DNA from: Curvibacter sp. PD_MW3
GTDB lineage: Bacteria > Pseudomonadota > Gammaproteobacteria > Burkholderiales > Burkholderiaceae_C
DNA: 64,000 bases
Assembly (NCBI GenBank): GCA_002633085.1
Contig: NSIV01000002.1
Location: 105,602-169,601 of the forward strand
Direction of reading: 5' to 3'
Shown: piece after piece, positions 29,223-64,000 of the stretch
Layout: the number at the start of each line of letters is the position of its first letter
How positions within the stretch are numbered: the first letter of the stretch is position 1
Notes under the pieces: model-generated
Told to the model about the DNA's origin: nothing
The model's input: the letters and a program-made list of their open reading frames with translations, nothing else
Databases searched by the model: none
Made by a program: the position numbers and the translations under genes

Positions 29223-31400
29223 TTACTCGTCGTCATCGTCAAAGTGCATCCCATTCGGATCCTTGCCCTCGGCAATCGCCTTCATTCCTTGATTAAATCG
29301 CCTCACCGTTGCGCGCTGTCTCTCAGTCAAATTCGGCCTGGACAACAAGCCGTTCACACGCGGCGTGAGCGGCTCCAAGTCCATCGCAGCGGCGAGCGCC
29401 TTCATGGACAGTTGGTATGTCTCGGACACCTTATTGCCCGCTTGCATCGTGCCGGTCGTGACAAACTTGTCCAGCAGCGCCGCGAGCTTGTCGTCATCGG
29501 CCAGCATCGGCTCGAACACTTGGCGAATCCGGGACGCATCGCCCCACCGGCCCCATCGAAGGACGATGAAATCGAGGTCAGGCATTGACATGAGCTCGTC
29601 CAGAGTCGCGCGGTCCAGTCGGCCGCCGACTGTCTTGGACATGCGTTCGGGAAAGCCATCCGAAAGATCAAGCAACGCCTTGGGCGCCTTAGAGGGATCT
29701 TGCTTCGATCGCAATGTGTCGTCGGCCAAATCGACCAAGCTCCAAAGGCCTGGCGAGGTTTCTGCGAGCCCCATGAGCAGCTCCTCGCGTTGGGCAACTT
29801 CAAGGCGCTCGAGCTGTTTGCATACCAACCCAGCCAGACGCCAACGGTTAGGCATAGCAAAGAATCCCCCTCGCTCGTCGGCCTTTCTGAGTAGGAGATG
29901 TCCATTGTCCACAAGAGCCTTGATAAGGTTGGCTGCCTTTCCTGGTTCTAGCTGATCGAAGTCGCGCAAGCGCTCTATAAGGTCGCGAGCTTTGGAATGC
30001 CCATCTGGGAAGACGACATCTTTGGCTTCAAGCAATAACGAGGCGATGCCCTCGGGCGATTTTTGGTTGGCAAGGCGGTCCAGCTCGGCGCGGCTTACGT
30101 GGCCAGGAGGGACGCCGAACTGGAAGTAAACATCGAAGTTCGCCTCACTGCATGGACGCAGCTCCTTGCGCCAACTTCCACTGTCGTTGGAAACGAACCT
30201 GTCCGTCGACAAGACCGCAGCAACCTTCGGGAATATCCTTCCCACGAGGTCCGCAAGCTGTTTCCTCCGCCCCTCAGGCAGCGCCGCTCTCCATGCTTCG
30301 AAATAGGCCTTCTCTTCCTCCTTCTTGTAGTCGAGCTGCGTGGGAGCGCCAATGAAGAACCCCTTGGCGTCTCGAATGCTGCCGTAAACGGCCGGCTCGA
30401 AGACTCTCACAAACTCAAGGGCGATGAAGTCCACTGGGTTGACCTCGCCCGCGACGGGTGGATACGCGACAGATATGGCGTTGAGGATGCGGACGATGTC
30501 TCTCGGCTTCTCGATCAAGCGGTCCAAGCCATCGGAATACACCTCAGCCCAGCGGCTTTGATCAAAAGCGAAAGGCATCGGATGGGCCTCGATGATCGAG
30601 TCCAATCCCTTGAAGAGCTTTTGCTGAAGCTGTTGACGATCGACCGCTGGCAAGTGGAACGGCGCCTGCACGATTTTCTCCAAGTAGGCTTCACCGTCCA
30701 TACGCAGGGAAGTGGACAACGCCTTGGCCACCTCTTCCCTATCAAAAAAGAGAACATAGACGACCTCGGGGAAGTCCGCCAAGGCTTTGATCGCCCGAAA
30801 GAAGTCGCGAGCCTCATCAGGGGTGAGCCGGTCGATGTCGTCGACGAAAAAGACGAAGCGCTTTCCTAGAGACTTCAATGCAGCCGCGGTTTCCTTCTTG
30901 ACCGACGGAACGTCAGTTTTCTTGGTCAGGGCCTTGATGCCTGGGATCCAACTCAGAAGAGCCGCGGCAGGCTTTTTGATCCATCCCCAGCCTGACACGT
31001 CGGCAGCCACGTCAGCGATTTGCTTGGAATACTTGCCGACGAGCGACGCCAAAGGCCGGAGGTATTTGAGCCGATCCGGCAACTGGCTGGCGAACTGGGC
31101 AAGCAACTGCGAAGCAATTTGGTCCCGCCCTTCGAACCACCAGGGATTGAAATCGACGATGACAGGCCTTCGATCCTCGGGCAAATTCTTCAAGTAGTGC
31201 TTGATGAAATTCGCGAGACTCGACTTTCCGCTTCCCCACTTGCCATGGACCGCCAAAACCAAACCTTGCGGGCTCTTGTTGCCTACGATCGCCGTCGCCA
31301 ATCGCGACGCGAATGGCGCATAGCCGTAAGCGTCGTCATCCGGATTCTCCAAGGGAAGATCCGACCCTAACTCCCACGGTTGAATTGCCTCGTCTGCCAT
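29223..31400 (-). CDS. KAP-family P-loop NTPase
   Basis: Walker A GKWGSGKSS and Walker B RFVFFVDDIDRLTPDE with the following FRAIKAL, typical of the KAP family. About 726 aa from the ATG at 31400; the ORF extends to 31460. Confidence 0.8.
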   Translation of the reverse strand: MADEAIQPWELGSDLPLENPDDDAYGYAPFASRLATAIVGNKSPQGLVLAVHGKWGSGKSSLANFIKHYLKNLPEDRRPVIVDFNPWWFEGRDQIASQLLAQFASQLPDRLKYLRPLASLVGKYSKQIADVAADVSGWGWIKKPAAALLSWIPGIKALTKKTDVPSVKKETAAALKSLGKRFVFFVDDIDRLTPDEARDFFRAIKALADFPEVVYVLFFDREEVAKALSTSLRMDGEAYLEKIVQAPFHLPAVDRQQLQQKLFKGLDSIIEAHPMPFAFDQSRWAEVYSDGLDRLIEKPRDIVRILNAISVAYPPVAGEVNPVDFIALEFVRVFEPAVYGSIRDAKGFFIGAPTQLDYKKEEEKAYFEAWRAALPEGRRKQLADLVGRIFPKVAAVLSTDRFVSNDSGSWRKELRPCSEANFDVYFQFGVPPGHVSRAELDRLANQKSPEGIASLLLEAKDVVFPDGHSKARDLIERLRDFDQLEPGKAANLIKALVDNGHLLLRKADERGGFFAMPNRWRLAGLVCKQLERLEVAQREELLMGLAETSPGLWSLVDLADDTLRSKQDPSKAPKALLDLSDGFPERMSKTVGGRLDRATLDELMSMPDLDFIVLRWGRWGDASRIRQVFEPMLADDDKLAALLDKFVTTGTMQAGNKVSETYQLSMKALAAAMDLEPLTPRVNGLLSRPNLTERQRATVRRFNQGMKAIAEGKDPNGMHFDDDDE

Positions 31401-31636
31401 GAACCTTCCCCACCTCGCACAAGAGGTTTTGTTAGTTTTGCGCGCCCGGCTTGATGCCAAGCTATTTGATCTGGAAGATTATGTCGAAAACCGCTTCGGT
31501 GCTTTTCGATCGAGCGCTGATCGCGTCATGGCGCCGGCTCTCCAACCTCGGAGCCATCGTCGCTTCGAGCCTACCGACTTCCAGCAGAACCTACCAGCCA
31601 CCGAAATCAACACCACAGCCCAATTGAAAGCACACT

Positions 31637-40640: not shown

Positions 40641-41324
40641 TCAATCGCCTTGAATCGCCAGTTTCGCATCCAAATCTACTGCGATTTCGGAGAGAAGTTC
40701 TAGGGATGAGTCGCCAAGCTTGTCCGGTCCGACATGAGCTGCTAAGGATTTGTCGCGGGCGGCCATCAATTCGCTCAGCTCAGCGAGGCACATTCGGATG
40801 GTCGCCTCCACCACCGCGTCAACCTCGGGATGCCCCGTGTCGAGCTCCATGCTCTCAAGCAGCTCCATCGTCAGGTCCGCGCCCAGCATCAGGTCGCCCG
40901 TTACCCAACTGTTTACTGTGAATAGCGAGACGGGCAGGCCCTTGGCGTCGAAGCCGATGGCCAGCAAATGGCGTGTATGGGCATCCGACACAGGATCGCC
41001 ACACAGGCCTGCAAACGCCCTCTCCGACTTGGATCGCAGCCTGCGGCCCCAAAGCGGGCGGCGAGCGAACAGGTGGATATGCCCGTGCTCCGAGGAGCCG
41101 GGCCGGTCCTCGGGGCTGTGCGAGTGGTAGAACCATTGGTAGCCCCGCGAGGCGTCGATCGCGTCGTCCTCCGGGTAGTGGGCCCATTGCTTCGGCGTCG
41201 CGCCTCCAAGAAGGCCTGCGAACAAATGCTCTCCGCGCTCGGCCAACGCGGCGTAGGCTTCAAGAAGTCGCGCGCCCACCCCGTCCACCGAAGCGGAACG
41301 ACGAATGCGCGGGCCCGCCCTCAC
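40641..41324 (-). CDS. Conserved hypothetical protein with a His-rich HSHSPEDRPGSSEHGHIHLF motif (cupin-like metal site?)
   Basis: Coherent coding from about the GTG at 41324, directly after the stop of the upstream Cys-rich gene. The ORF track extension to 41504 reads the Cys-rich gene's repeats in another frame. Confidence 0.55.
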   Translation of the reverse strand: MRAGPRIRRSASVDGVGARLLEAYAALAERGEHLFAGLLGGATPKQWAHYPEDDAIDASRGYQWFYHSHSPEDRPGSSEHGHIHLFARRPLWGRRLRSKSERAFAGLCGDPVSDAHTRHLLAIGFDAKGLPVSLFTVNSWVTGDLMLGADLTMELLESMELDTGHPEVDAVVEATIRMCLAELSELMAARDKSLAAHVGPDKLGDSSLELLSEIAVDLDAKLAIQGD

Positions 41325-50119: not shown

Positions 50120-51262
50120 ATGGAGACAAGTCAAATTGGAGAGGTGTTTCAAGTTGCGACCAACAAGGCGCTGACTGAGACCGGCGGAGGACATAGCCAG
50201 AAGGGCGTGGATTTTCAACGCGCCTGGGCCTTGTCCCGCATGTTTGAGACAGTGGACGAAGGCGCCACCGACTTCCTGTTTCTTTTTGAGGCGATCCAAG
50301 ACGTTGCCGTCCTTGATTCACCGACCGATCCGAAGTCGATTCGGATCTATCAGGTCAAAAAGAAGGACCGCAAAGAGTGGGAATGGAGCGAGTTGACCGA
50401 GCTTCATAACCCCGCCAAGCCGAAGGCTAGGCCCAAAGATCCATCCAAGATCGGAACCAGCACCATTGGCAAGCTCTATTCGAGCGTGATCGCGTTCAAA
50501 AATCTGAAAAGCTCGGGCAGCTTTGTGTCCAATGCCGGAACCAATCTCCCCCTCTCGAATGGAGCCAACGCAGCGACATCAGTCTCCTGCGACTTATCTC
50601 AACTAAGAAGCGACCACCTAACACTTCTCGAAGAGGGATTAAAGACCCTTCATGATTCCGGCCAAACCGTTCCTAATCCGGCTCTGATCAGCATCGAGAA
50701 GGTCAGCTTGCCGCCGGACGATCCGGCAACTCACCTTAATGGCCTCGCAGTCTCCTTCCTGAGCAAACGCAGTGCAAAGCATGCAGGCCAAGCCAAAGCT
50801 CTGGTGGATGCGCTTCTCGCCCAAATCGGCCCTCTAGGCTCCAAAACAGACAGCTGTTCCTCATTTAAGGAGCTTTGCCAGCAGCGTGGATATGCTCGAT
50901 CGGACTTCATCGCCGCTTTAGGTGCTCTCGAAACCGTTCCCGATATGCAAGCTCTCCTTGACGCCTGGCTCACAAGGCTCACGCAGGAAGGTGGCATCGA
51001 CTTTATGCTTGCCACCGCAACAAGGGTGGCTGGCGGTCGCATTTTTACGCGAAACTTGATAGGCGGCGAGGATCCAGCAGTCGCGGCGCTCATCTCAGAT
51101 TGCGATCGCTGGATCGACGCCAATCCCCCCGGCTCGGATCTTTCACCCTATTTTCAAAAGGCTCGCGCTCACCTGGAGCCACTCCATCGGTCGTTCAGGA
51201 GCCCTGAACTCATCGCTCACTTTATGTTGAGGGCCATCAAAAAATGCGTGGACCTGATCTAA
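50120..51262 (+). CDS. Cap4/DUF4297-like dsDNA nuclease-domain protein (LmuA-like effector)
   Basis: N-terminal GG.SQKGVDFQRAWALSRM...DFLFLFEAIQDVAVLD...IRIYQVKKK resembles a PD-(D/E)xK Cap4-type nuclease fold. GGGAGG RBS. Low-GC patch. Confidence 0.65.
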   Translation: METSQIGEVFQVATNKALTETGGGHSQKGVDFQRAWALSRMFETVDEGATDFLFLFEAIQDVAVLDSPTDPKSIRIYQVKKKDRKEWEWSELTELHNPAKPKARPKDPSKIGTSTIGKLYSSVIAFKNLKSSGSFVSNAGTNLPLSNGANAATSVSCDLSQLRSDHLTLLEEGLKTLHDSGQTVPNPALISIEKVSLPPDDPATHLNGLAVSFLSKRSAKHAGQAKALVDALLAQIGPLGSKTDSCSSFKELCQQRGYARSDFIAALGALETVPDMQALLDAWLTRLTQEGGIDFMLATATRVAGGRIFTRNLIGGEDPAVAALISDCDRWIDANPPGSDLSPYFQKARAHLEPLHRSFRSPELIAHFMLRAIKKCVDLI

Positions 51263-51295
51263 GAAAACTGGTTCGAAGCCTCAGGACTAAATCAC

Positions 51296-52981
51296 ATGAG
51301 AAGCTTTCTCTTCGAGGATATCTGGATTCTTTCGCGCAAAGACAAGCGAGCCAGGATTGTGGACTTCAACCCCGGGAAGAACCTGATTCTCGGCAGGAAC
51401 CACACCGGCAAATCAAGCCTGATTAAAAGCCTCTTCACCACACTTGGCGCCACCCCAAGCGGCAAGCTCCAAGGCTGGAACGAGGACACCATCACGAAGG
51501 TTGGCTTCTCAGTTGACGGAATTCGATATGCGGCTCTTCACCAGGCGGGAACACGCGCTCTATTTGACGCTGAGGGGCAAACGCTAACCGTTGCTCAGAA
51601 CCAGTCGGCGTGGAGCGAGGCTTTCGCAGCGGCGACAGGGTTCAATCTTCCTTTAATCGACAAGAATTCAAAAACGGTTCTTGCCGATCCGCGATGCTTC
51701 TTCATGCCGTTCTATATCAACCAAGACGGCAGCTGGATGGCTGAATGGGACACCTTCACCGGCATTCAGCAATACAAGGCGCCCATACTCTCGATTCTTG
51801 AATATTTCACAGGCATCAAGCCTCCCGAATACTATGCCGCGAAGGCCAAAAGGGATGCCGAGCAGGTCATCATCGAAGAGCTGCGACGCGAAAAAGCCTC
51901 ACTTGAAAAGGCCCGAGAGAGGGTGAGCAAATCCCTTTCGATGTCAGGCCCCAAAGTCGACCCAAAGAACTTCGAGACTGAAATCGCTCAGCTCACCACC
52001 GAGATCAACGAGCTGAATCAAAAGCAAGAGATTCTCAGGGATCAGGCGGTCAAAGAGCGCGAACTTCTCTCCTCAATCCGCCTTCAGAACAGGCTGGCCG
52101 AGGAGGCGTTGAAAGTCTACGAGAGCGACGCGGAGTTCATCCGTTCAGAGCCTCGCGACGCCATCGTCTGTCCTGTATGCAACGCTGAGCATGAGAATTC
52201 ATTTCTTGACCTGCTCACCTATGCAGAGGATGCCCGATCGCTCAGGGACATTACCGTTCGTTTGCGTAGAGACTCGATAGAGGTCGAAGCACGACTTGCC
52301 AAGACGCAAGGGCAAATCGACGAGCTCGCGGCACATTACCGGAAGGTGTCCGAACTTCTGGGAACGCGCCGAGGCGAGATGCAGTTCACACAAGTCGTTG
52401 ACAGCTTAGGGGCAGAGCGCGCGTTTTCCGCTTTTGAGCAAGAGCGCGCGGTTCTTGAAAAGGAACTGGGCGAACGCCTTCTCACACAAGAACGTTTGTC
52501 AGAGGGCATGGAAAAGCTGACCGATCGAGCCCGATCCAAAGACATTTTGAAGACTTTTCGAGAGGCCTTTTCTTCTGCGCTGATCGCCTTGAATCTTCCC
52601 GCGAACGATACCAGCAAGGCGCGCTTGAACAGCCGCCCCAACGTTTCAGGCAGCGGGGGCCCTCGCTCGGTGCTCGCCTACTACGCCGCACTTTGGGCTG
52701 CCTGCTACGGACAGATGGGGTCATTTCAAGTGCCTCTGGTGGTTGACTCCCCGAACCAGCAGGGGCAGGACGACATCAACCTGCCTAAGATCATCCAGTT
52801 TATTTGCGAGCGGCTTCCACAGCGGGCTCAGCTCATTCTCGGCTCCGAGATTGACACCGAGCACGACTTCGACCAAAAGCACGAGCTCTCTGATCAGTAT
52901 CGACTCTTGAATAGTGCGTCGTTCGACGATGTGGAGAAGGTCTTAGGTCCTATGGCCACCTTGATGTATCTGAAAGCCTGA
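51296..52981 (+). CDS. Rad50/SMC-like ABC ATPase with a coiled coil and CxxC hook (LmuB-like)
   Basis: Walker A GRNHTGKSS near the N-terminus, about 250 aa of heptad-rich coiled coil with a central CPVCNAEH, a signature-like SGSGGPRS, and Walker B/D-loop PLVVDSPNQQGQDD. Confidence 0.7.
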   Translation: MRSFLFEDIWILSRKDKRARIVDFNPGKNLILGRNHTGKSSLIKSLFTTLGATPSGKLQGWNEDTITKVGFSVDGIRYAALHQAGTRALFDAEGQTLTVAQNQSAWSEAFAAATGFNLPLIDKNSKTVLADPRCFFMPFYINQDGSWMAEWDTFTGIQQYKAPILSILEYFTGIKPPEYYAAKAKRDAEQVIIEELRREKASLEKARERVSKSLSMSGPKVDPKNFETEIAQLTTEINELNQKQEILRDQAVKERELLSSIRLQNRLAEEALKVYESDAEFIRSEPRDAIVCPVCNAEHENSFLDLLTYAEDARSLRDITVRLRRDSIEVEARLAKTQGQIDELAAHYRKVSELLGTRRGEMQFTQVVDSLGAERAFSAFEQERAVLEKELGERLLTQERLSEGMEKLTDRARSKDILKTFREAFSSALIALNLPANDTSKARLNSRPNVSGSGGPRSVLAYYAALWAACYGQMGSFQVPLVVDSPNQQGQDDINLPKIIQFICERLPQRAQLILGSEIDTEHDFDQKHELSDQYRLLNSASFDDVEKVLGPMATLMYLKA

Positions 52982-53041
52982 ACATCACGAGCTGATGAAG
53001 TCTTGACACAAGCCGACCGACGAGAGACTGATGCCCTCATA

Positions 53042-53304
53042 TTGGCACGGGCAAAGTCTTGTCCGTCAACCTTCAAACCCCACCATCCACCCTTGGCGTC
53101 TTGATTCTTCAAGAAGCGGGCGCGAAGGACTTGAGCGGCAATCCACTGATTCTTGTAAATCTTATCGGCATCCATGGGCCACACTCCGCCGGGCTATACA
53201 AAGAAACGATCTTCGCTCAGGAAGTTGGCTCGAGCCAAGAGTTCTCATCCGCCCCGAGCGAACTTCGCCGAGCACCAGCCTGCGGTATCTTGGCTCGAGC
53301 CAAG
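53042..53304. repeat. Array A of the 16-bp palindrome CTTGGCTCGAGCCAAG (2 near-perfect copies plus 1 degenerate)
   Basis: GTTGGCTCGAGCCAAG at 53224-53239, CTTGGCTCGAGCCAAG at 53289-53304, and a degenerate ATTGGCACGGGCAAAG at 53042-53057 that shares the flank tcttgtccg with copy B2. Confidence 0.85.
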
Positions 53305-53422
53305 TGCGGCCAACACAGATGCCGCGATGGAAACCCGACAGGATCAACCGGTGCACTCTAAGCGCGAGCGCGACGCGAGGCTTGATTTGACAACGCTCCC
53401 GAAGCGCGAGATGAAATAGGGC

Positions 53423-53836
53423 TTGGAAACCACAATCCCCACGCCCCAGAGCCATTTGTCAATGGCTGAGTATTGGATTCAGCTTCGCGCACTCGTGGCA
53501 GCGCGGCCATCCCTCGTGCGCGAGATGTTTCCCGACCTCGAAGCCGATCGCCTGACCGAGCTTCAGGAGCGCGACCAAGAGCTGGGGGAGATCGCCAAAA
53601 GCAGAGGGCTTACGATGTTTGCCCCTGCTCGGCGAGCTGTATTGCAGCAGCGGGATCCCTGCGTCGAGTCGGGAATGATCTACTCGTTTTTCGACTCCGA
53701 AGACGGTGAACTCATCGCTGAGATCACGGGCTATTCCAGAGCTTTTATTTGGCTCTACAAAGAGGCGCAGGCCATAGTTTTGCAGCGGCACGTCCTAGTC
53801 CATCACGAGGCTAGGGACGCTGATTTCCGACTTTGA
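53423..53836 (+). CDS. Hypothetical protein
   Basis: 137-aa ORF downstream of palindrome array A. No recognised motif; the start is uncertain (alternative MAEYWIQ). Confidence 0.4.
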   Translation: METTIPTPQSHLSMAEYWIQLRALVAARPSLVREMFPDLEADRLTELQERDQELGEIAKSRGLTMFAPARRAVLQQRDPCVESGMIYSFFDSEDGELIAEITGYSRAFIWLYKEAQAIVLQRHVLVHHEARDADFRL

Positions 53837-54416
53837 ACTCCTGACGAATCTCATCACGATCTTTCCACTGCCGAATCAAGTCTGCGACGTGCTCCCCACA
53901 AAGCCGCTTGACATGATCGTAACCCGGGACGCCGAATAGATGCATCAGACGTCTCTCGGCTGCTGCTGGTCCGAAGAATTCAAAGTAGCGGCCTAGCGCG
54001 TTTTCGATTAAACCCTTGACTCTGTCTGTCAATTGGGGTTCGCCGAGGCTGATGCTAGTGTTCCATTCGTAGAGACTTTCCTCGAAATCGAGCAGGATAC
54101 GGATCCTCCACAGAGAATCAGAAGGCTCCGTGTGAGCGAATTCCACAGCGCCTCGCCAGAGATCTTCAAAGCATTCCGTAGCTCCTATTTGCGCACACAC
54201 AGTCAGTAGAGACAACGGCGTTCCATCGTTCTCCACGCCCCAAGTCGCAACTCGGGAGATATGCCCGTCGGGAAGTTTGCCCCGGGTTTGGGCTAGTTTC
54301 TTCAGCTCGTCCAAAAACGCCAAATGATCAGCAATCGCCAGATCAAATTCGCGGCGCGATATCACTATCACATCCGGGAGCGAACGGAGACGTGCAGCTT
54401 CTTCTAGATTTTCCAT
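53811..54416 (-). CDS. Hypothetical protein
   Basis: About 201 aa from the internal ATG (MENLEEAARL); the ORF extends to 54473. Its upstream region contains palindrome array B. No recognised motif. Confidence 0.45.
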   Translation of the reverse strand: MENLEEAARLRSLPDVIVISRREFDLAIADHLAFLDELKKLAQTRGKLPDGHISRVATWGVENDGTPLSLLTVCAQIGATECFEDLWRGAVEFAHTEPSDSLWRIRILLDFEESLYEWNTSISLGEPQLTDRVKGLIENALGRYFEFFGPAAAERRLMHLFGVPGYDHVKRLCGEHVADLIRQWKDRDEIRQEFKVGNQRP

Positions 54417-54475
54417 ATCATTAGATTGTCGGCCATTTGTCGTGGGTTGCACTCGCGGCTTGAGGTTGAGCAAGT

Positions 54476-54558
54476 CTTGGCTCGAGCCAAGAGTTGCTAT
54501 TCAGCACGGGCACGCGTCGGCTGAACAGTCGCCCCGCGGAAACTTGGCTCGAGCCAAG
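54476..54558. repeat. Array B of the 16-bp palindrome CTTGGCTCGAGCCAAG (2 perfect copies)
   Basis: Copies at 54476-54491 and 54543-54558, 67 bp start to start, in the divergent intergenic region. Confidence 0.9.
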
Positions 54559-54623
54559 TCTTGTCCGCCGGCCTTTACGGCTCCAGTAATTAAACTGGCT
54601 GGGGGCCGAAGCAGGAAGCTGCG

Positions 54624-55025
54624 ATGCGGTCGGCTACGGTGAAGGATTTCGAGGCCGTCATCAGGGACGCCGAAGTGGAGGACCTCCGGATTTTTCTCGG
54701 CCGGTTCATGGAGATGTGCGTCCAGCCCGGCGCCAATTCAGCCCACTTTGGAAACGCGACCAACGTCTTCATAGACGCGTGCAAAAACATCTACAACGAC
54801 CCGTCGGTGCCGCGCCTGGTGAAGCTTATCGAGTCGCTGTTCAAGAACGCGAAGCTTGAAAGTCGTCTGTCTCCTCCTGTGCCGGCGCAACCGCAGCGGT
54901 GTCGCATGATGGGCTGTGGGATGCGCATGGAGCGGCCTCAACCTTTGTCGGCGGCGCGGCCTTCGCAACCATCGCGCTCATGGGCCAGTTCGCGCGTCAG
55001 GCCCGGCCCTTCAAGGACTGACTAG
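54624..55025 (+). CDS. Hypothetical protein (the C-terminal third may be a non-native read-through at a module junction)
   Basis: The first roughly 85 aa look protein-like. The last roughly 45 aa are Pro/Arg/Ser-rich and coincide with a jump to higher GC. Confidence 0.3.
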   Translation: MRSATVKDFEAVIRDAEVEDLRIFLGRFMEMCVQPGANSAHFGNATNVFIDACKNIYNDPSVPRLVKLIESLFKNAKLESRLSPPVPAQPQRCRMMGCGMRMERPQPLSAARPSQPSRSWASSRVRPGPSRTD

Positions 55026-55035
55026 TTAGACGCTT

Positions 55036-55311
55036 TCATTTGAGATACGACTTCAGCACGGACACCACCTCTTCCAGGTCGCTTTCCCGCTGAACTGGAT
55101 CGGTGGCCTCTGCGCCCAAATGATCGCGCAAATGATGTTCCAGAACCTCTGACATCAGCCCGTTGACCGCGCCACGGATGGCGGCGATCTGCTGCAAGAT
55201 CGCCGCGCAATCAACCTCCGCTTCCAACGCTTTTTCGAGCGCATCGGACTGCCCGCGAATGCGCCGCACTCGCGTGAGCAATTTGGCTTTGCCTTTGATC
55301 GTGTGCGCCAT
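55036..55311 (-). CDS. rcnR: RcnR/FrmR/CsoR-family metal-sensing repressor
   Basis: MAHTIKGKAKLLTRVRRIRGQ...EVDCAAILQQIAAIRGAVNGLM..HHL, 91 aa, divergent from rcnA. Confidence 0.85.
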   Translation of the reverse strand: MAHTIKGKAKLLTRVRRIRGQSDALEKALEAEVDCAAILQQIAAIRGAVNGLMSEVLEHHLRDHLGAEATDPVQRESDLEEVVSVLKSYLK

Positions 55312-56553: not shown

Positions 56554-56574
56554 GTCTTTAGGATAAGATTAATG

Positions 56575-56691
56575 AGTCACTGGGGAGTAGCCGGCCTTCG
56601 ATAAACCGAAGGCGCTTGCGTCAACACACTTGATCCACACGATCATGGCGCAAGCGGTTTCCGACTTGGCAAGACCTTTGACCATGCAGCT
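56575..56691 (+). ncRNA. yybP-ykoY (manganese) riboswitch
   Basis: The conserved cores GGGGAGUAGC (56582-56591), GUCAACAC and UUGGCAAGACCUUUG (56666-56680) flank two internal hairpins (gccttcg/cgaaggc and gcttgcg/cgcaagc). It lies 5' of a GDT1/UPF0016 gene, a known regulated family. Confidence 0.75.
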
Positions 56692-56751
56692 TCCGGTTTG
56701 GCCGGGGAGGCGCGTGGTCAATTGTTTTTTGCCCGGCCTGGGAACTTAAAA

Positions 56752-57327
56752 ATGGAAGCTCTTTTGACTTCAATGGGTGTGGTCGCGCTGGCAGAGATCG
56801 GCGACAAGACCCAACTTCTCGCGTTCGTTCTGGCGGCGAGATTCAAGAAACCTCTCCCCATCATCGCGGCAATTCTTTGCGCGACGCTCGTCAATCATGG
56901 TCTAGCGGGAGCATTGGGCGCCTGGATCACTTCGATGCTTACCCCCGAGGTTCTTCGCTGGGTGGTGGGAATCTCGTTTCTCGGCATGGCAGTGTGGACC
57001 CTCATCCCGGACAAGATCGAAGAAGAAGAGACTCAGGTTGCGAAGCATTTGGGTGTTTTCGGAGCCACACTGGTGACCTTCTTCTTGGCGGAAATGGGCG
57101 ACAAGACGCAGATCGCGACAGTCGCCATGGCCGCGCACTTTCCAAATCCGGTGATGGTGGTGATTGGCACCACGCTGGGCATGCTGATTGCCGATGTGCC
57201 GGCGGTCTTTGTGGGTGACCGCTTCTCCAAGAAGATCCCAATGAAGCTGGTGCACTCGATCGCTGCTGCGATGTTCGCTGTGATGGGTGTTCTGGCTTTG
57301 CTGCAGGTTGACACCTGGATAAAGTAG
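56752..57327 (+). CDS. GDT1/TMEM165 (UPF0016) family cation (Mn2+/Ca2+) transporter
   Basis: Two E-x-G-D-K-[TS] repeats (AEIGDKTQLLAF and AEMGDKTQIATV). ATG at 56752. Confidence 0.85.
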   Translation: MEALLTSMGVVALAEIGDKTQLLAFVLAARFKKPLPIIAAILCATLVNHGLAGALGAWITSMLTPEVLRWVVGISFLGMAVWTLIPDKIEEEETQVAKHLGVFGATLVTFFLAEMGDKTQIATVAMAAHFPNPVMVVIGTTLGMLIADVPAVFVGDRFSKKIPMKLVHSIAAAMFAVMGVLALLQVDTWIK

Positions 57328-61600: not shown

Positions 61601-62266
61601 ATGTGCGCGCATTACGAAGGCGTCAAAGACCCTAAAACCTACGCTGAGCGTTATTCGTCAGCTCCACCGTCCGAGGCTGGCAAGGTCGATCTGTGGCCAG
61701 GCTATTTGGGCTCGTTCATCCGCAGGCATCCTCACGCCGATGTGGGAGACGAGGCCGTGCCTGAGCGAGAAGCTCTCCTTGGGTCCTTCGGATTGATCCC
61801 CCACTGGGCGACCGACGCCAAACTAGCTCGCAACACCTACAACGCCCGCAGCGAGACTGCCGCTTCGAAGCCGAGCTTTCGCGATGCGTGGAAGAAGGCT
61901 CGGCACTGCATCATCCCGGCCCAAGCGATTTACGAGCCTGACTGGCGCAGCGGCAAAGCTGTTTCCACCCGCATTGAACGCAGCGATGGAGCGCCCATGG
62001 GCATCGCTGGCCTTTGGGACTCGTGGAAGCAGCCCGATGGAACCTGGCTGAACAGCTACACGATGCTCACGATCAACGCCGACCATCACGAGCTGATGAA
62101 GTCCTTTCACAAGCCGACTGACGAGAAGCGAATGGTGGTGATCCTTCCCGAGGCAGCCTACGGCGATTGGCTGGCGGCGTCCGCCTCGGACAGCATGGAC
62201 TTCATGCAGCCCTATCCCGCCGATCGGCTCACGGTCCACGCGACGGCAGCCCAAGGACTGTTTTGA
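61601..62266 (+). CDS. SOS response-associated peptidase (SRAP/YedK-like abasic-site processing protein)
   Basis: It starts MCAHY (catalytic Cys2) and has the family motifs NARSET, PA..YEP and MLT.NA. Confidence 0.85.
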   Translation: MCAHYEGVKDPKTYAERYSSAPPSEAGKVDLWPGYLGSFIRRHPHADVGDEAVPEREALLGSFGLIPHWATDAKLARNTYNARSETAASKPSFRDAWKKARHCIIPAQAIYEPDWRSGKAVSTRIERSDGAPMGIAGLWDSWKQPDGTWLNSYTMLTINADHHELMKSFHKPTDEKRMVVILPEAAYGDWLAASASDSMDFMQPYPADRLTVHATAAQGLF

Positions 62267-62998: not shown

Positions 62999-63258
62999 CT
63001 TGGCTCGAGCCAAGAATTGCGATCCGCCTTGTTCTCGCGTCTGCCAATTCCCCGCCCGTCGGAATCTTGGCACGAGCCAAGATTGTTGACCTCGTCCGAT
63101 CGACAAAGGCAAACTCTCCCCAAGCTTGGCTCGAGCCAAGAACGGTGCTTTGTCCGGCGGGCATGCCAACCTGTCGGAATCTTGGCTCGAGCCAAGATCA
63201 TTGAACCCGTCCCATAGACAAGGATAGGCGCTGCCACCCAACCTTGGCTCGAGCCAAG
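62999..63258. repeat. Array C of the 16-bp palindrome CTTGGCTCGAGCCAAG (5 copies)
   Basis: Copies start at 62999, 63066 (one mismatch, CTTGGCACGAGCCAAG), 63125, 63181 and 63243. Spacers are 40-51 bp and non-identical. The array ends 66 bp before the ATG at 63325. Confidence 0.9.
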
Positions 63259-63324: not shown

Positions 63325-64000
63325 ATGACCCAACAAAGCGGAGCAGCGCAACTTTTGGAGGCCGTCATGTTCGCGGCGGAGCGGCACCGAAACCAACGCC
63401 GCAAGGACGCCGAGGCCTCGCCATACATCAACCACCCGATCGCTCTGGCGCATCTATTGGCGACGACAGGTGGAATCGAAGACGTCGATGTCTTGCGCGC
63501 AGCCATCCTGCACGACACCGTGGAGGACACCGAAACCACTGAGAACGAGCTGCGCGAACGATTTGGAAACGCGGTGGCGGGGATCGTCATGGAGGTCACA
63601 GACGACAAGTCGCTGCCCAAGCAACGGCGCAAGGAGCTGCAAATCGAACATGCTCCTCACAAGAGCCGCGGCGCGGCCCTGGTGAAGCTCGCCGACAAGA
63701 CCTGCAATCTGCGCGACATCGCGGCGACCCCGCCGGCTGATTGGCCGCTCGCTCGCAGACAGGCTTATTTCGATTGGGCAAAGAGCGTAGTCGACGCTCT
63801 ACCTCCCGTCAGCGAACCGCTACGGAAGGCGTTCGATGAGGCCTATGCCAAGTGCCCTGCCGCGCAAAATTCAGACCCGACCGCCCGTGAGGGCCACTGG
63901 TTGAGCATGCCGGGCGTCCTTCGCGGGACGTCGGGATTCGTCCGCGTTCTCGATTCGGGCGCGATCGAGATCGAGCTCTACGACCATAGCGCCGCAGCGG
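63325..64000 (+). CDS. HD-domain (p)ppGpp/alarmone pyrophosphohydrolase-like protein (small alarmone hydrolase type) with an extra C-terminal region; 3' end outside the window
   Basis: My translation from the ATG at 63325, preceded by GAGAGGAA, reads MTQQSGAAQLLEAVMFAAERHRNQRRKD..PYINHPIALAHLL...AAILHDTVEDT...KLADKTCNLRD. The frame stays open to the window end. This ORF is absent from the supplied ORF track, presumably because no stop codon occurs before the window end. Confidence 0.75.
   Translation, partial: MTQQSGAAQLLEAVMFAAERHRNQRRKDAEASPYINHPIALAHLLATTGGIEDVDVLRAAILHDTVEDTETTENELRERFGNAVAGIVMEVTDDKSLPKQRRKELQIEHAPHKSRGAALVKLADKTCNLRDIAATPPADWPLARRQAYFDWAKSVVDALPPVSEPLRKAFDEAYAKCPAAQNSDPTAREGHWLSMPGVLRGTSGFVRVLDSGAIEIELYDHSAAA

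What the first reader, a model, noticed from the sequence alone, without database searches (positions are those of the whole stretch)
53042..54558. The same palindrome, in pairs, brackets three orphan genes next to the candidate defence operon
Near-perfect copies sit at 53224 and 53289, 65 bp apart and upstream of the 53423 ORF. Perfect copies sit at 54476 and 54543, 67 bp apart, between the divergent 53811-54416 and 54624 ORFs. A degenerate copy at 53042 shares its 3' flank (tcttgtccg) with copy 54543, which suggests the repeat unit extends beyond 16 bp for some copies. Sites in every promoter region of three uncharacterised genes plus the distant HD hydrolase gene suggest one regulon or one recombination or partition system inside the island. 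The three proteins have no motifs I can recognise.
Basis: partly seen in the sequence, partly recalled or inferred. Interest (0 to 1): 0.7.

Follow-up and report, generated by a model that had tools for sequence, protein, structure and literature searches.

The report
Plasmid centromere sites without partition genes
The repeated 16-base palindrome is the known docking site (parS centromere) of the DNA-segregation protein ParB of a family of Burkholderia-type plasmids. It occurs here 13 times on an integrated mobile element in which no such protein gene was found, so the element probably borrows, or interferes with, a plasmid's segregation machinery rather than running a private regulon for three orphan genes.

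Summary
TTGGC-N4-GCCAA occurs 9 times in the window (0.12 expected), and 4 more copies lie just past its end, giving four intergenic clusters of 2, 2, 5 and 4 sites.

The 16-mer CTTGGCTCGAGCCAAG is letter for letter the wild-type parS centromere of plasmid pBC of Burkholderia cenocepacia J2315, which ParB-pBC binds in vitro (PMC5450999). In all 12 loci examined that encode a ParB at least 59% identical to this clade, the same palindrome lies within about 2 kb upstream of parA and, in most, inside the 5' end of parB. A 32%-identical ParB uses a different palindrome.

Homologues of the "orphan" genes occur in six other loci, and none carries the palindrome. The regulon reading therefore fails and the partition reading holds.

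The unusual point is that no cognate parA or parB exists from window position 1 to about 101 kb. That stretch is a mobile element with defence and metal-resistance cargo, a TrfA-family initiator, an integrase and a TrwC relaxase. The best reading is orphan parS arrays served in trans by a pBC-family plasmid's ParAB, as shown for SGI1 and IncC plasmids. This is inferred, not shown.

Two orphans form a conserved convergent gene pair of unknown function. The third looks like a gene fragment.

The parts
53224..53239 (.). parS site 1, GTTGGCTCGAGCCAAG (G at position 1)
   Evidence: It is identical to probe S40 of PMC5450999, which ParB-pBC binds (score 38, against 43 for wild type).
53289..53304 (.). 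parS site 2, perfect CTTGGCTCGAGCCAAG, 158 nt upstream of the ATG at 53462
   Evidence: Identical to wild-type parS-pBC, probe S38wt.
54476..54491 (.). parS site 3, perfect, 59 nt upstream of the ATG (54416) of the minus-strand 201-aa gene
54543..54558 (.). parS site 4, perfect, 65 nt upstream of the ATG at 54624
62999..63258 (.). Array of five parS sites. The 16-mers lie at 62999, 63066 (T7A variant), 63125, 63181 and 63243, spaced 67, 59, 56 and 62 bp. The array ends 66 nt before the HD_4 start codon. It contains an internal duplication of about 115 bp.
   Evidence: family D3: 52 nt at 85% identity, 115 bp apart.
53041..53056 (.). Degenerate copy ATTGGCACGGGCAAAG (3 mismatches in the 14-bp core), probably a decayed site. 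The left arm is largely intact; the right arm carries a change at position 13.
   Evidence: chance level on its own; D6: 26 of 32 bases shared with copy 54544 plus flank. In the SPRi data, symmetric changes at positions 4-13 abolish binding, but a half-site is still bound.
53462..53836 (+). A real, rare protein family of unknown function.
   Evidence: Seven relatives by exhaustive HMMER, the best 79% identical. Gene call on the Logan contig. AF2 mean pLDDT 77, no PDB match.
53811..54416 (-). Gene B (201 aa), convergent with gene A and overlapping its 3' end by 26 nt. The pair is conserved.
   Evidence: Homologues at 55%, 41% and 31% identity sit in the same convergent, overlapping position in L013, L024 and L025/L026. 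AF2 mean pLDDT 58, all-helical, no match.
54624..55025 (+). 133-aa ORF, probably a fragment. Residues 1-85 match the C-terminus of a protein of at least 477 aa that precedes the A/B pair elsewhere.
   Evidence: Only a self hit among 5.8 billion proteins. tblastn gives 35% identity, E = 3e-13, to the ends of the upstream genes in L025 and L026.
63325..64000 (+). HD_4 (RelA/SpoT-type HD hydrolase) gene, 298 aa in full (to window-equivalent 64221). It is flanked by the five-site array upstream and a four-site array downstream.
   Evidence: Pfam HD_4, 5e-20. Full gene and downstream sites.

Best explanation
The palindrome is a parS centromere: the 16-bp binding site of the ParB protein of the pBC-type (Burkholderiales secondary replicon, Bsr) ParABS plasmid-partition family.

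Shown: the sequence is identical to the experimentally bound parS of pBC. The motif co-occurs strictly with pBC-clade parAB in other genomes. The sites sit on a mobile element integrated in a Curvibacter (Comamonadaceae) contig. That element encodes a TrfA-family replication initiator, an excisionase-like HTH protein, a tyrosine integrase and a TrwC relaxase. No cognate parA or parB lies anywhere in the roughly 101 kb examined.

Inferred: the 13 sites are orphan centromeres served in trans by the ParB/ParA of a pBC-family plasmid sharing the cell. ParB dimers would bind each palindrome and build one large partition complex over the 11-kb stretch. When the element is excised and replicating, this would let it be segregated by the plasmid's ParA. 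At the same time it would compete with the plasmid for ParB (partition incompatibility). This is what was demonstrated for the island SGI1 and IncC plasmids.

Because the clusters lie 59-158 nt upstream of start codons, bound ParB would probably also damp transcription of the flanking genes (gene A, gene B, HD_4). That would be a side effect of centromere placement, not a dedicated regulon.
For: (1) Identity to the known site. Probe S38wt 'CttggctcgagccaaG' is the wild-type parS-pBC, with a ParB-pBC binding score of 43 against 4 without ParB. The G1 variant (the same as site 53224) scores 38, and single-arm changes at positions 6-7 score 30-48 (PMC5450999, S1 File, Fig C). pBC itself carries 3 sites upstream of parA and 1 inside parB, and the internal site is mentioned in PMC4948915.

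(2) Co-occurrence. All 12 loci with a ParB at least 59% identical to this clade carry the exact 14-mer within about 2 kb upstream of parA: L001-L004, pBCK56, Ottowia L009, L010, Duganella L011 and L012, metagenome L018 and L020, and Comamonadaceae plasmid L027. A 32%-identical ParB on a Rhodoferax plasmid uses a different palindrome in the same layout. Closely spaced pairs of the motif occur in only 4 of 185,579 species genomes, all at parAB, and in 8 metagenome contigs. Four of those eight show parA, and the other four have the array at a contig edge.

(3) No cognate protein nearby. A profile of 120 pBC-clade ParBs and tblastn with ParA and ParB find nothing in the six-frame translation of window 1-64000 or of the downstream contig to about 100.95 kb.

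(4) Mobile-element hallmarks downstream: TrfA (Pfam 23.1 bits against a cutoff of 22; 24% identity to pBC TrfA), HTH_17, Phage_integrase, and a TrwC relaxase 23% identical to pBC MobF.

(5) Precedent. SGI1 carries parS mimics that bind IncC ParB, stabilise SGI1 and expel the plasmid (PMC10954446). Extra copies of this very parS (p1 = pBC) disturb B. cenocepacia (PMC4948915).

(6) pBC-clade plasmids do occur in Comamonadaceae, the host's family.
Against: No helper plasmid or ParB was seen in this sample, and I could not search the sample as a whole.

The element's right end was not reached. The last 3 kb of the Logan contig and the rest of the 529-kb MAG contig are unseen, so an own parAB farther away is not excluded.

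The element's borders, excision and replication are all inferred. The TrfA match is only just above threshold.

Thirteen sites is far more than SGI1's two, and more than any pBC-clade plasmid examined here (2-6 sites), which the hijack model does not require.

The link between the 65% GC flank (1-28 kb) and the element rests on the MAG assembly alone. The independent Logan contig starts at window position 40844.
Confidence: 0.55

Rival explanations
1. The sites are the element's own centromere. A cognate parAB operon lies in a part of the element I could not read (beyond about 101 kb), and the arrays work in the ordinary cis-encoded way, as dispersed centromeres far from their par genes.
For: The right end of the element was not reached. 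Dispersed parS sites away from parAB are known: 14 sites are scattered over the IncC backbone (PMC10954446). The element has a plasmid-type backbone with TrfA and a relaxase.
Against: In all 12 pBC-clade loci examined, the sites lie within about 2 kb upstream of parA or inside parB. Here nothing cognate lies within 53 kb upstream or 36 kb downstream of the arrays. Among the 120 best ParB relatives (at least 60% identity), none has a longest contig of 529,198 bp, the size of this MAG contig, although the MAG's other proteins are in that database. The backbone proteins are only 23-24% identical to those of pBC, whereas the parS is identical. That is not what co-divergence of an own ParB/parS pair would give: compare the 32% ParB with its different site.
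Confidence: 0.22
2. The sites are a relic. The arrays are left over from an integrated pBC-like plasmid that lost parAB, and they have no present function.
For: The neighbourhood is rearranged. There is a decayed copy at 53042, a fragment of an SRAP gene with an internal stop at 52980-53035, a truncated 133-aa ORF and an IS1595 transposase.
Against: Twelve of the 13 sites keep the full 14-bp core, and the thirteenth has a single change at a tolerated position. The spacers between them have diverged to roughly 50-75% identity. Unselected 16-mers would have decayed along with the spacers. The site number is higher than in any plasmid of the clade examined, and part of it arose by local duplication, which suggests expansion rather than decay.
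Confidence: 0.13
3. The sites are operators of a local transcription factor that controls a regulon made of the three orphan genes and the HD hydrolase.
For: All clusters are intergenic and 59-158 nt upstream of start codons. Several HTH regulators are encoded on the element: ArsR twice, AraC, RcnR and BrxR.
Against: Homologues of genes A and B in six other loci never carry the palindrome. Homology with L013 ends before the parS pair. The motif is tied to ParB everywhere else. No product of the three ORFs shows a DNA-binding fold. Four sites lie downstream of the HD gene, not in a promoter.
Confidence: 0.05
4. The palindromes are a structural or repeat element unrelated to protein binding: REP or MITE-like palindromes, RNA hairpins or terminators, or a degenerate CRISPR-like array.
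For: The arrays of 5 and 4 short palindromic repeats with unique spacers of 40-51 nt look CRISPR-like. The hairpins fold strongly (z = -6.3). Two sites were flagged as terminator-like.
Against: The repeat is 16-18 bp, below the length of CRISPR repeats as I know them (own knowledge), and no cas genes were seen in the annotation. The copies are confined to 11 kb rather than dispersed. The loop bases TCGA are invariant, which a hairpin does not need. The number of terminator-like hits equals the shuffled expectation. There is no Rfam hit at the sites.
Confidence: 0.03

Closest known systems
parS-pBC (also called parS-p1), the centromere of the 92.7-kb plasmid pBC of Burkholderia cenocepacia J2315; Bsr family of ParABS systems (Pillet et al. 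2017, PMC5450999; Du et al. 2016, PMC4948915)
   Same: The 16-bp sequence CTTGGCTCGAGCCAAG is identical. It is palindromic with a central CG. It occurs in clusters with spacings of about 50-100 bp.
   Different: On pBC and on every relative examined, the 2-6 sites lie within about 2 kb upstream of parA or inside parB. Here 13 sites in four clusters are spread over 11.4 kb with no parAB within about 101 kb. The host is a Comamonadaceae MAG contig, not a Burkholderia plasmid.
parS-like DR1/DR2 motifs of Salmonella genomic island 1 (SGI1), which hijack the ParABS system of IncC helper plasmids (Muranyi et al. 2024, PMC10954446)
   Same: In both cases an integrated element with its own integrase, replication initiator and mobilisation function has no parAB of its own yet carries copies of a conjugative plasmid's centromere. 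In SGI1 these sites bind the plasmid's ParB, stabilise the island and destabilise the plasmid.
   Different: SGI1 has 2 sites; here there are 13. The plasmid family, site sequence and bacterial class differ (IncC in Gammaproteobacteria against pBC/Bsr in Betaproteobacteria). Nothing has been tested experimentally here, and no helper plasmid has been observed.
KorB and its OB operators on IncP plasmid RK2 (own knowledge, not tested here), and the 14 parS sites scattered over IncC backbones (PMC10954446)
   Same: A ParB-family protein has palindromic sites dispersed in promoter regions across an element, so centromere binding and transcriptional silencing are coupled. The pBC system likewise pairs a short ParA (about 220 aa) with a large HTH ParB and places sites in its own promoter.
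   Different: KorB is encoded on the same plasmid as its sites. Here no ParB is encoded nearby, and the flanking genes' homologues elsewhere lack the site.

Membership tests
parS of the pBC-type (Bsr) ParABS system | 16-bp palindrome matching the sequence bound by ParB-pBC, with positions 2-5 and 12-15 (TTGG...CCAA) intact | tested here: met
   Twelve of the 13 sites have the exact 14-bp core, and one has T7A on one arm. The wild-type probe and the tolerated variants are listed in PMC5450999, S1 File, Fig C.
parS of the pBC-type (Bsr) ParABS system | Co-occurrence of the motif with a pBC-clade ParB across genomes | tested here: met
   All 12 loci with a ParB at least 59% identical carry it. 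A 32%-identical ParB has a different palindrome.
parS of the pBC-type (Bsr) ParABS system | Location next to the cognate parAB operon on the same replicon | tested here: not met
   The profile search and tblastn find no ParA or ParB of this clade from window position 1 to about 100.95 kb.
parS of the pBC-type (Bsr) ParABS system | Binding by ParB, and ParAB-dependent stabilisation of a replicon carrying the site | not testable with these tools
   Needs EMSA, ChIP or SPRi, plus plasmid-stability assays.
Island-borne parS mimics that hijack a helper plasmid's ParABS (SGI1 type) | Integrated element with its own integrase or excisionase, replication initiator and mobilisation gene | tested here: met
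   Phage_integrase 1.9e-19; HTH_17; TrfA 23.1 bits (cutoff 22); TrwC relaxase. The att borders were not determined.
Island-borne parS mimics that hijack a helper plasmid's ParABS (SGI1 type) | No parAB of its own | tested here: inconclusive
   parAB is absent over about 73 kb of the element (28-101 kb), but the right end of the element was not reached.
Island-borne parS mimics that hijack a helper plasmid's ParABS (SGI1 type) | Sites match the centromere of a conjugative plasmid family present in the same host range | tested here: met
   The sites are identical to the parS of pBC-clade plasmids, which occur in Comamonadaceae (Ottowia contig L009, plasmid CP099604.1).
Island-borne parS mimics that hijack a helper plasmid's ParABS (SGI1 type) | Helper ParB binds the sites, the island is stabilised and the plasmid is destabilised | not testable with these tools
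Dedicated operator regulon of the flanking orphan genes | The operator is conserved upstream of homologous genes in other genomes | tested here: not met
   None of the 6 loci with homologues of gene A (4 of them also with gene B) carries the motif, even allowing 3 mismatches. Upstream homology with L013 stops short of the parS pair.
REP/MITE-type dispersed palindromes | Many copies dispersed in intergenic regions across the genome | tested here: not met
   All 13 copies lie within 11.4 kb. There are none in the other roughly 90 kb examined.

The most novel reading that the evidence does not exclude
An integrated, mobilisable element in a Comamonadaceae genome has dispensed with partition genes. 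Instead it carries 13 perfect copies of the centromere of a widespread family of Burkholderiales conjugative plasmids, set in the middle of a defence island (Lamassu, PifA, Ssp-like, GmrSD, MAD7-containing cluster).

If so, the arrays would work as a centromere 'parasite and decoy'. They would capture the plasmid's ParB/ParA to segregate the excised element, and they would drive the plasmid out by partition incompatibility. This would be the second known case after SGI1 and IncC, the first in Betaproteobacteria, and the first with large arrays. ParB spreading from four clusters might also switch the intervening defence and stress genes according to whether the plasmid is present.
Probability: 0.3. 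Interest if true: 0.65.

Novelty: new member of a known kind. Interest (0 to 1): 0.5.

Why it matters
Centromere mimicry by an integrated element has so far been demonstrated only for SGI1 and IncC plasmids, and it explains both island stability and plasmid exclusion there. A second, independent instance in another bacterial class, with an experimentally characterised ParB/parS pair already in hand (pBC of B. cenocepacia), would suggest that hijacking of partition systems is a general strategy in conflicts between mobile elements. It would also be directly testable with existing reagents. For annotation, the case shows that a short perfect palindrome in 'promoters' of orphan genes can be assigned by matching it to known centromere sequences, and that such arrays can resemble operators or CRISPR-like repeats.

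Tried and rejected
- **Family searches on the three ORF products.** Pfam, PADLOC and PHROG searches gave nothing.
- **Structure prediction.** The 201-aa protein folded from a single sequence gave mean pLDDT 58, and its Foldseek PDB hits are meaningless (best E = 0.12). The 124-aa protein with a 6-sequence alignment gave pLDDT 77 but no PDB match (best E = 0.34, to a JetC fragment, TM 0.33). No RHH, HTH or ParB fold can be claimed.
- **Plasmid database.** PLSDB megablast of 52900-55100 and tblastn of the 201-aa protein found no match.
- **Promoter scan.** No sigma-70 consensus was found around any cluster, so the scan is uninformative.
- **Remnant of a pBC backbone.** I tested whether the parS neighbourhood derives from a pBC backbone. 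Only a weak PIN-domain similarity (28%) turned up; SRAP, UmuDC and HD_4 have no counterpart. Rejected as a recent derivative.
- **HD_4 as a replacement for parAB.** Plasmids of the clade have no downstream array, and the HD domain is a common small alarmone-hydrolase type found on many Burkholderia megaplasmids without the motif context. Not supported.
- **Direct look-up of a downstream protein.** I walked the contig instead through exact-sequence cluster look-ups.
- **Papers.** Dubarry et al. 2006 (J Bacteriol) is not held. No paper on the MAG was found.
- **Viral collection.** No pair of the motif occurs in IMG/VR.
- **Rfam.** No family matches at the sites.
Full report
**Observation.** The region was read directly. 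It also occurs five times in an array at 63000-63257, upstream of an HD-domain gene, where one copy carries a single T-to-A change. The relaxed pattern TTGGC-N4-GCCAA gives 9 matches against 0.12 expected from shuffles. A Logan assembly contig (SRR8040758_173) is 100% identical to the window over the 11,611 bp of overlap and shows four more exact copies directly after the HD gene, at window-equivalent 64311, 64377, 64438 and 64594. There are therefore 13 sites in four intergenic clusters (2, 2, 5 and 4) within 11.4 kb. None occurs in the rest of the window, and none in the next 36 kb. The copy at 53042 has three mismatches, which is chance level on its own. It shares 26 of 32 bases, flank included, with the 54544 copy, so it is probably a decayed site.

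**What the palindrome is.** A scan of one genome per species (185,579 species) for two copies 37-67 nt apart found only four loci, all in the Burkholderia cepacia complex. In each, the palindromes sit upstream of a parA-parB operon, with one more copy inside the 5' end of parB.
- One of these loci is the 92,661-bp plasmid of B. cenocepacia NCTC13227. It matches in size the J2315 plasmid record (P0051) and pBCK56 of K56-2, which carries exactly four sites, all at parAB.
- The supplement of Pillet et al. 2017 (PMC5450999) lists 'CttggctcgagccaaG' as the wild-type parS of pBC. ParB-pBC binds it with a score of 43, against 4 without ParB. A half-site is bound at 38 and the G1 variant at 38. Symmetric changes at positions 2-15, 3-14 or 4-13 abolish binding.
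- Du et al. 2016 (PMC4948915) mention the parS site internal to parB of this plasmid. They also report that supernumerary copies of this parS delay colony formation and produce anucleate cells.

**Specificity of the pairing.** ParB relatives were collected and their loci fetched. The exact 14-mer lies upstream of parA for an Ottowia ParB (65% identity), the ParB of GCA_023075095.1 (64%), Duganella ParBs (62%) and a Comamonadaceae plasmid ParB (59%). Most of these also have a copy about 150 nt into parB. A Rhodoferax plasmid ParB at 32% identity uses a different 16-bp palindrome (TATGAACCGGTTCATA, six copies) in the same layout. A metagenome scan gave eight more loci. Four show parA, with or without parB, beside the array. 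The other four have the array at a contig edge, one of them next to the same DUF3701 integrase that neighbours the array in L010 and L012. The motif is therefore tied to one ParB clade.

**The flanking 'orphan' genes.** None of the three products hits Pfam, PADLOC or PHROGs. Word-indexed searches of 5.8 billion proteins return only the self hits, annotated as hypothetical proteins of Curvibacter sp. PD_MW3 on a 529,198-bp MAG contig. This names the source organism.
- An exhaustive HMMER search found seven relatives of the 124-aa protein.
- Their contigs show the same arrangement four times: the 124-aa-type gene followed by a convergent gene of about 190-203 aa that overlaps its 3' end and is homologous to the window's 201-aa gene (55%, 41% and 31% identity). 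In one case the pair lies in a defence neighbourhood with a C5 methylase, Abi_C and GmrSD.
- Residues 1-85 of the 133-aa ORF match the C-terminus of a protein of at least 477 aa that precedes this pair in L025 and L026 (35% identity, E = 3e-13). It is most likely a gene fragment.
- None of these six loci contains the palindrome. In L013 the DNA homology upstream of the 124-aa gene, including a shared TTGACA box, ends before the point where the window has its parS pair.
- Structure predictions gave no usable fold assignment.

**Context.**
- GC content drops from about 65% to 53-63% at about 28 kb.
- From there on the DNA carries PifA, an ars operon, sulfur and thiol genes, an ECF sigma factor, an HD_5 protein, Lamassu (LmuA 3.5e-130, LmuB 9e-230), the first two parS clusters with the A/B pair, RcnR/RcnA, a Mn riboswitch with a GDT1 exporter, a PIN toxin, UmuDC, IS1595 and SRAP. 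The HD_4 gene follows, bracketed by the two larger arrays.
- I walked the Logan contig by exact-sequence look-ups. Next come an Ssp-like module (DUF4007, a 1115-aa protein, PAPS reductase), GmrSD, a cluster with a MAD7-domain protein and an FtsK-like 1815-aa protein, and BrxR.
- After these come a TrfA-family initiator (Pfam 23.1 bits, cutoff 22; 24% identity to pBC TrfA), an HTH_17 protein, a tyrosine integrase and a 1578-aa TrwC relaxase (23% identity to pBC MobF).
- This is a mobile element with integration, replication and mobilisation functions.
- A profile built from 120 pBC-clade ParBs, and tblastn with ParA and ParB, find nothing in any frame from window position 1 to about 100.95 kb.

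**Mechanism.**
- Shown: the sites are sequence-identical to a ParB-bound centromere; they co-occur with one ParB clade elsewhere; the cognate genes are absent here.
- Established for ParB proteins generally (my own knowledge, not tested here): dimers bind each palindrome through their HTH domains, load as CTP-dependent clamps and spread over neighbouring DNA, and ParA then positions the complex.
- Inferred: in this element the ParB comes from elsewhere, most simply from a pBC-family plasmid in the same cell. Such plasmids occur in Comamonadaceae.
- The published precedent is SGI1. Its two parS mimics bind IncC ParB, stabilise the replicating island and expel the plasmid (PMC10954446).
- The element's backbone proteins are only 23-24% identical to those of pBC, while the parS is identical. 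That fits selection to match a foreign ParB better than co-divergence of an own pair.
- Because the clusters lie 59-158 nt upstream of start codons, ParB binding would probably also repress genes A, B and HD_4. I regard this as secondary.

**Rivals.**
- An unseen parAB of the element's own, farther along the contig, remains possible at about 0.2. It does not fit the near-parAB placement of sites in all 12 relatives. It also does not fit the absence of any ParB relative at 60% identity or more whose longest contig matches the MAG contig size.
- A functionless relic (about 0.13) is suggested by local debris: the decayed site, a fragment of an SRAP gene with a stop codon at 52980-53035, the truncated ORF and the IS element. 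However, the cores are almost perfectly preserved while the spacers have diverged, and the array has grown by duplication.
- A local-regulator regulon and REP, terminator or CRISPR-like readings are unlikely, for the reasons given in the rival list.

**Comparison and novelty.** The sequence itself is already known: it is parS of pBC, in the Bsr family. As a member of that family it meets the sequence and co-occurrence criteria but fails the 'adjacent to parAB' criterion. As an SGI1-type hijacker it meets the architectural criteria I could test, with one gap (the element's end) and no experimental support. I therefore file it as a new member of a known kind. It is a candidate second example of an integrated element carrying a plasmid's centromere without partition genes, unusual for its 13 sites in four arrays and its position inside a defence island.

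**Verdict.** Interest is moderate at 0.5. The identity of the site is ordinary and explained. The orphan arrangement is uncommon and experimentally tractable, but its function here is inferred.

Noticed in passing
window 53462-54416; L013, L024 (2901-3921), L025 (1516-2445), L026 (753-1682): A conserved two-gene module of unknown function. A gene of about 124-140 aa is followed by a convergent gene of about 190-203 aa whose 3' end overlaps it. The module is found in five loci, once between a C5 DNA methylase and Abi_C/GmrSD genes. It may be a small defence-island module.
   Followed up: partly
window 54624-55025: Residues 1-85 of the 133-aa ORF match (35% identity, E = 3e-13) the C-terminus of a protein of at least 477 aa that precedes the A/B module in L025 and L026. 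The rest of the ORF is a proline/arginine-rich tail. It is probably a truncated gene.
   Followed up: yes
window 52980-53035: A fragment of about 18 codons of an SRAP (SOS-response-associated peptidase) gene, 89% identical in DNA to 62081-62126 inside the intact SRAP gene and carrying an in-frame stop. The overlapping 93-aa minus-strand ORF (52894-53175) is therefore probably spurious.
   Followed up: yes
window 50120-52981: The 'candidate defence operon' next to the finding is a two-gene Lamassu system: LmuA with a Cap4-type nuclease domain (PADLOC 3.5e-130) and LmuB (9e-230). No LmuC was detected among the neighbouring ORFs.
   Followed up: partly
window 29223-31460 (minus strand): A KAP-family NTPase that matches PADLOC PifA (6e-107) lies at the left edge of the low-GC element. 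The GC content shifts from about 65% to about 57% near 28.3 kb.
   Followed up: no
window 56570-56747: A manganese (yybP-ykoY) riboswitch (Rfam RF00080, 111.9 bits) lies upstream of the GDT1-family transporter gene at 56698-57327.
   Followed up: no
L006 12611-20029; L029 1-9931; L031 (window-equivalent 65-101 kb): Downstream of the window lie an Ssp-like phosphorothioation module (DUF4007, a 1115-aa protein, PAPS reductase), GmrSD, a cluster with MAD7 and an FtsK-like 1815-aa protein, and BrxR. After these come a TrfA-family initiator, an HTH_17 protein, a tyrosine integrase and a 1578-aa TrwC relaxase. The element is at least 73 kb long.
   Followed up: partly
L028 (Rhodoferax ferrireducens T118 plasmid NC_007901.1): A ParB 32% identical to ParB-pBC is accompanied by six copies of a different 16-bp palindrome, TATGAACCGGTTCATA. 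Five lie upstream of parA and one lies inside the 5' end of parB. This is the same architecture with a switched specificity, and probably an undescribed parS.
   Followed up: no
window 63325-64000 (full gene to 64221 on L006): The HD_4 protein has an N-terminal domain of about 190 aa, of the small-alarmone-hydrolase type and 56-69% identical to proteins on Burkholderia, Caballeronia, Variovorax and Methylocalor replicons in PLSDB. It also has a C-terminal extension of about 110 aa with no match. The gene is bracketed by parS arrays of five and four sites.
   Followed up: partly
window 63055-63221: Inside the five-site array, a 52-nt unit (one parS plus flank) recurs 115 bp later at 85% identity. 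The array therefore grew at least partly by tandem duplication of a two-site unit.
   Followed up: no
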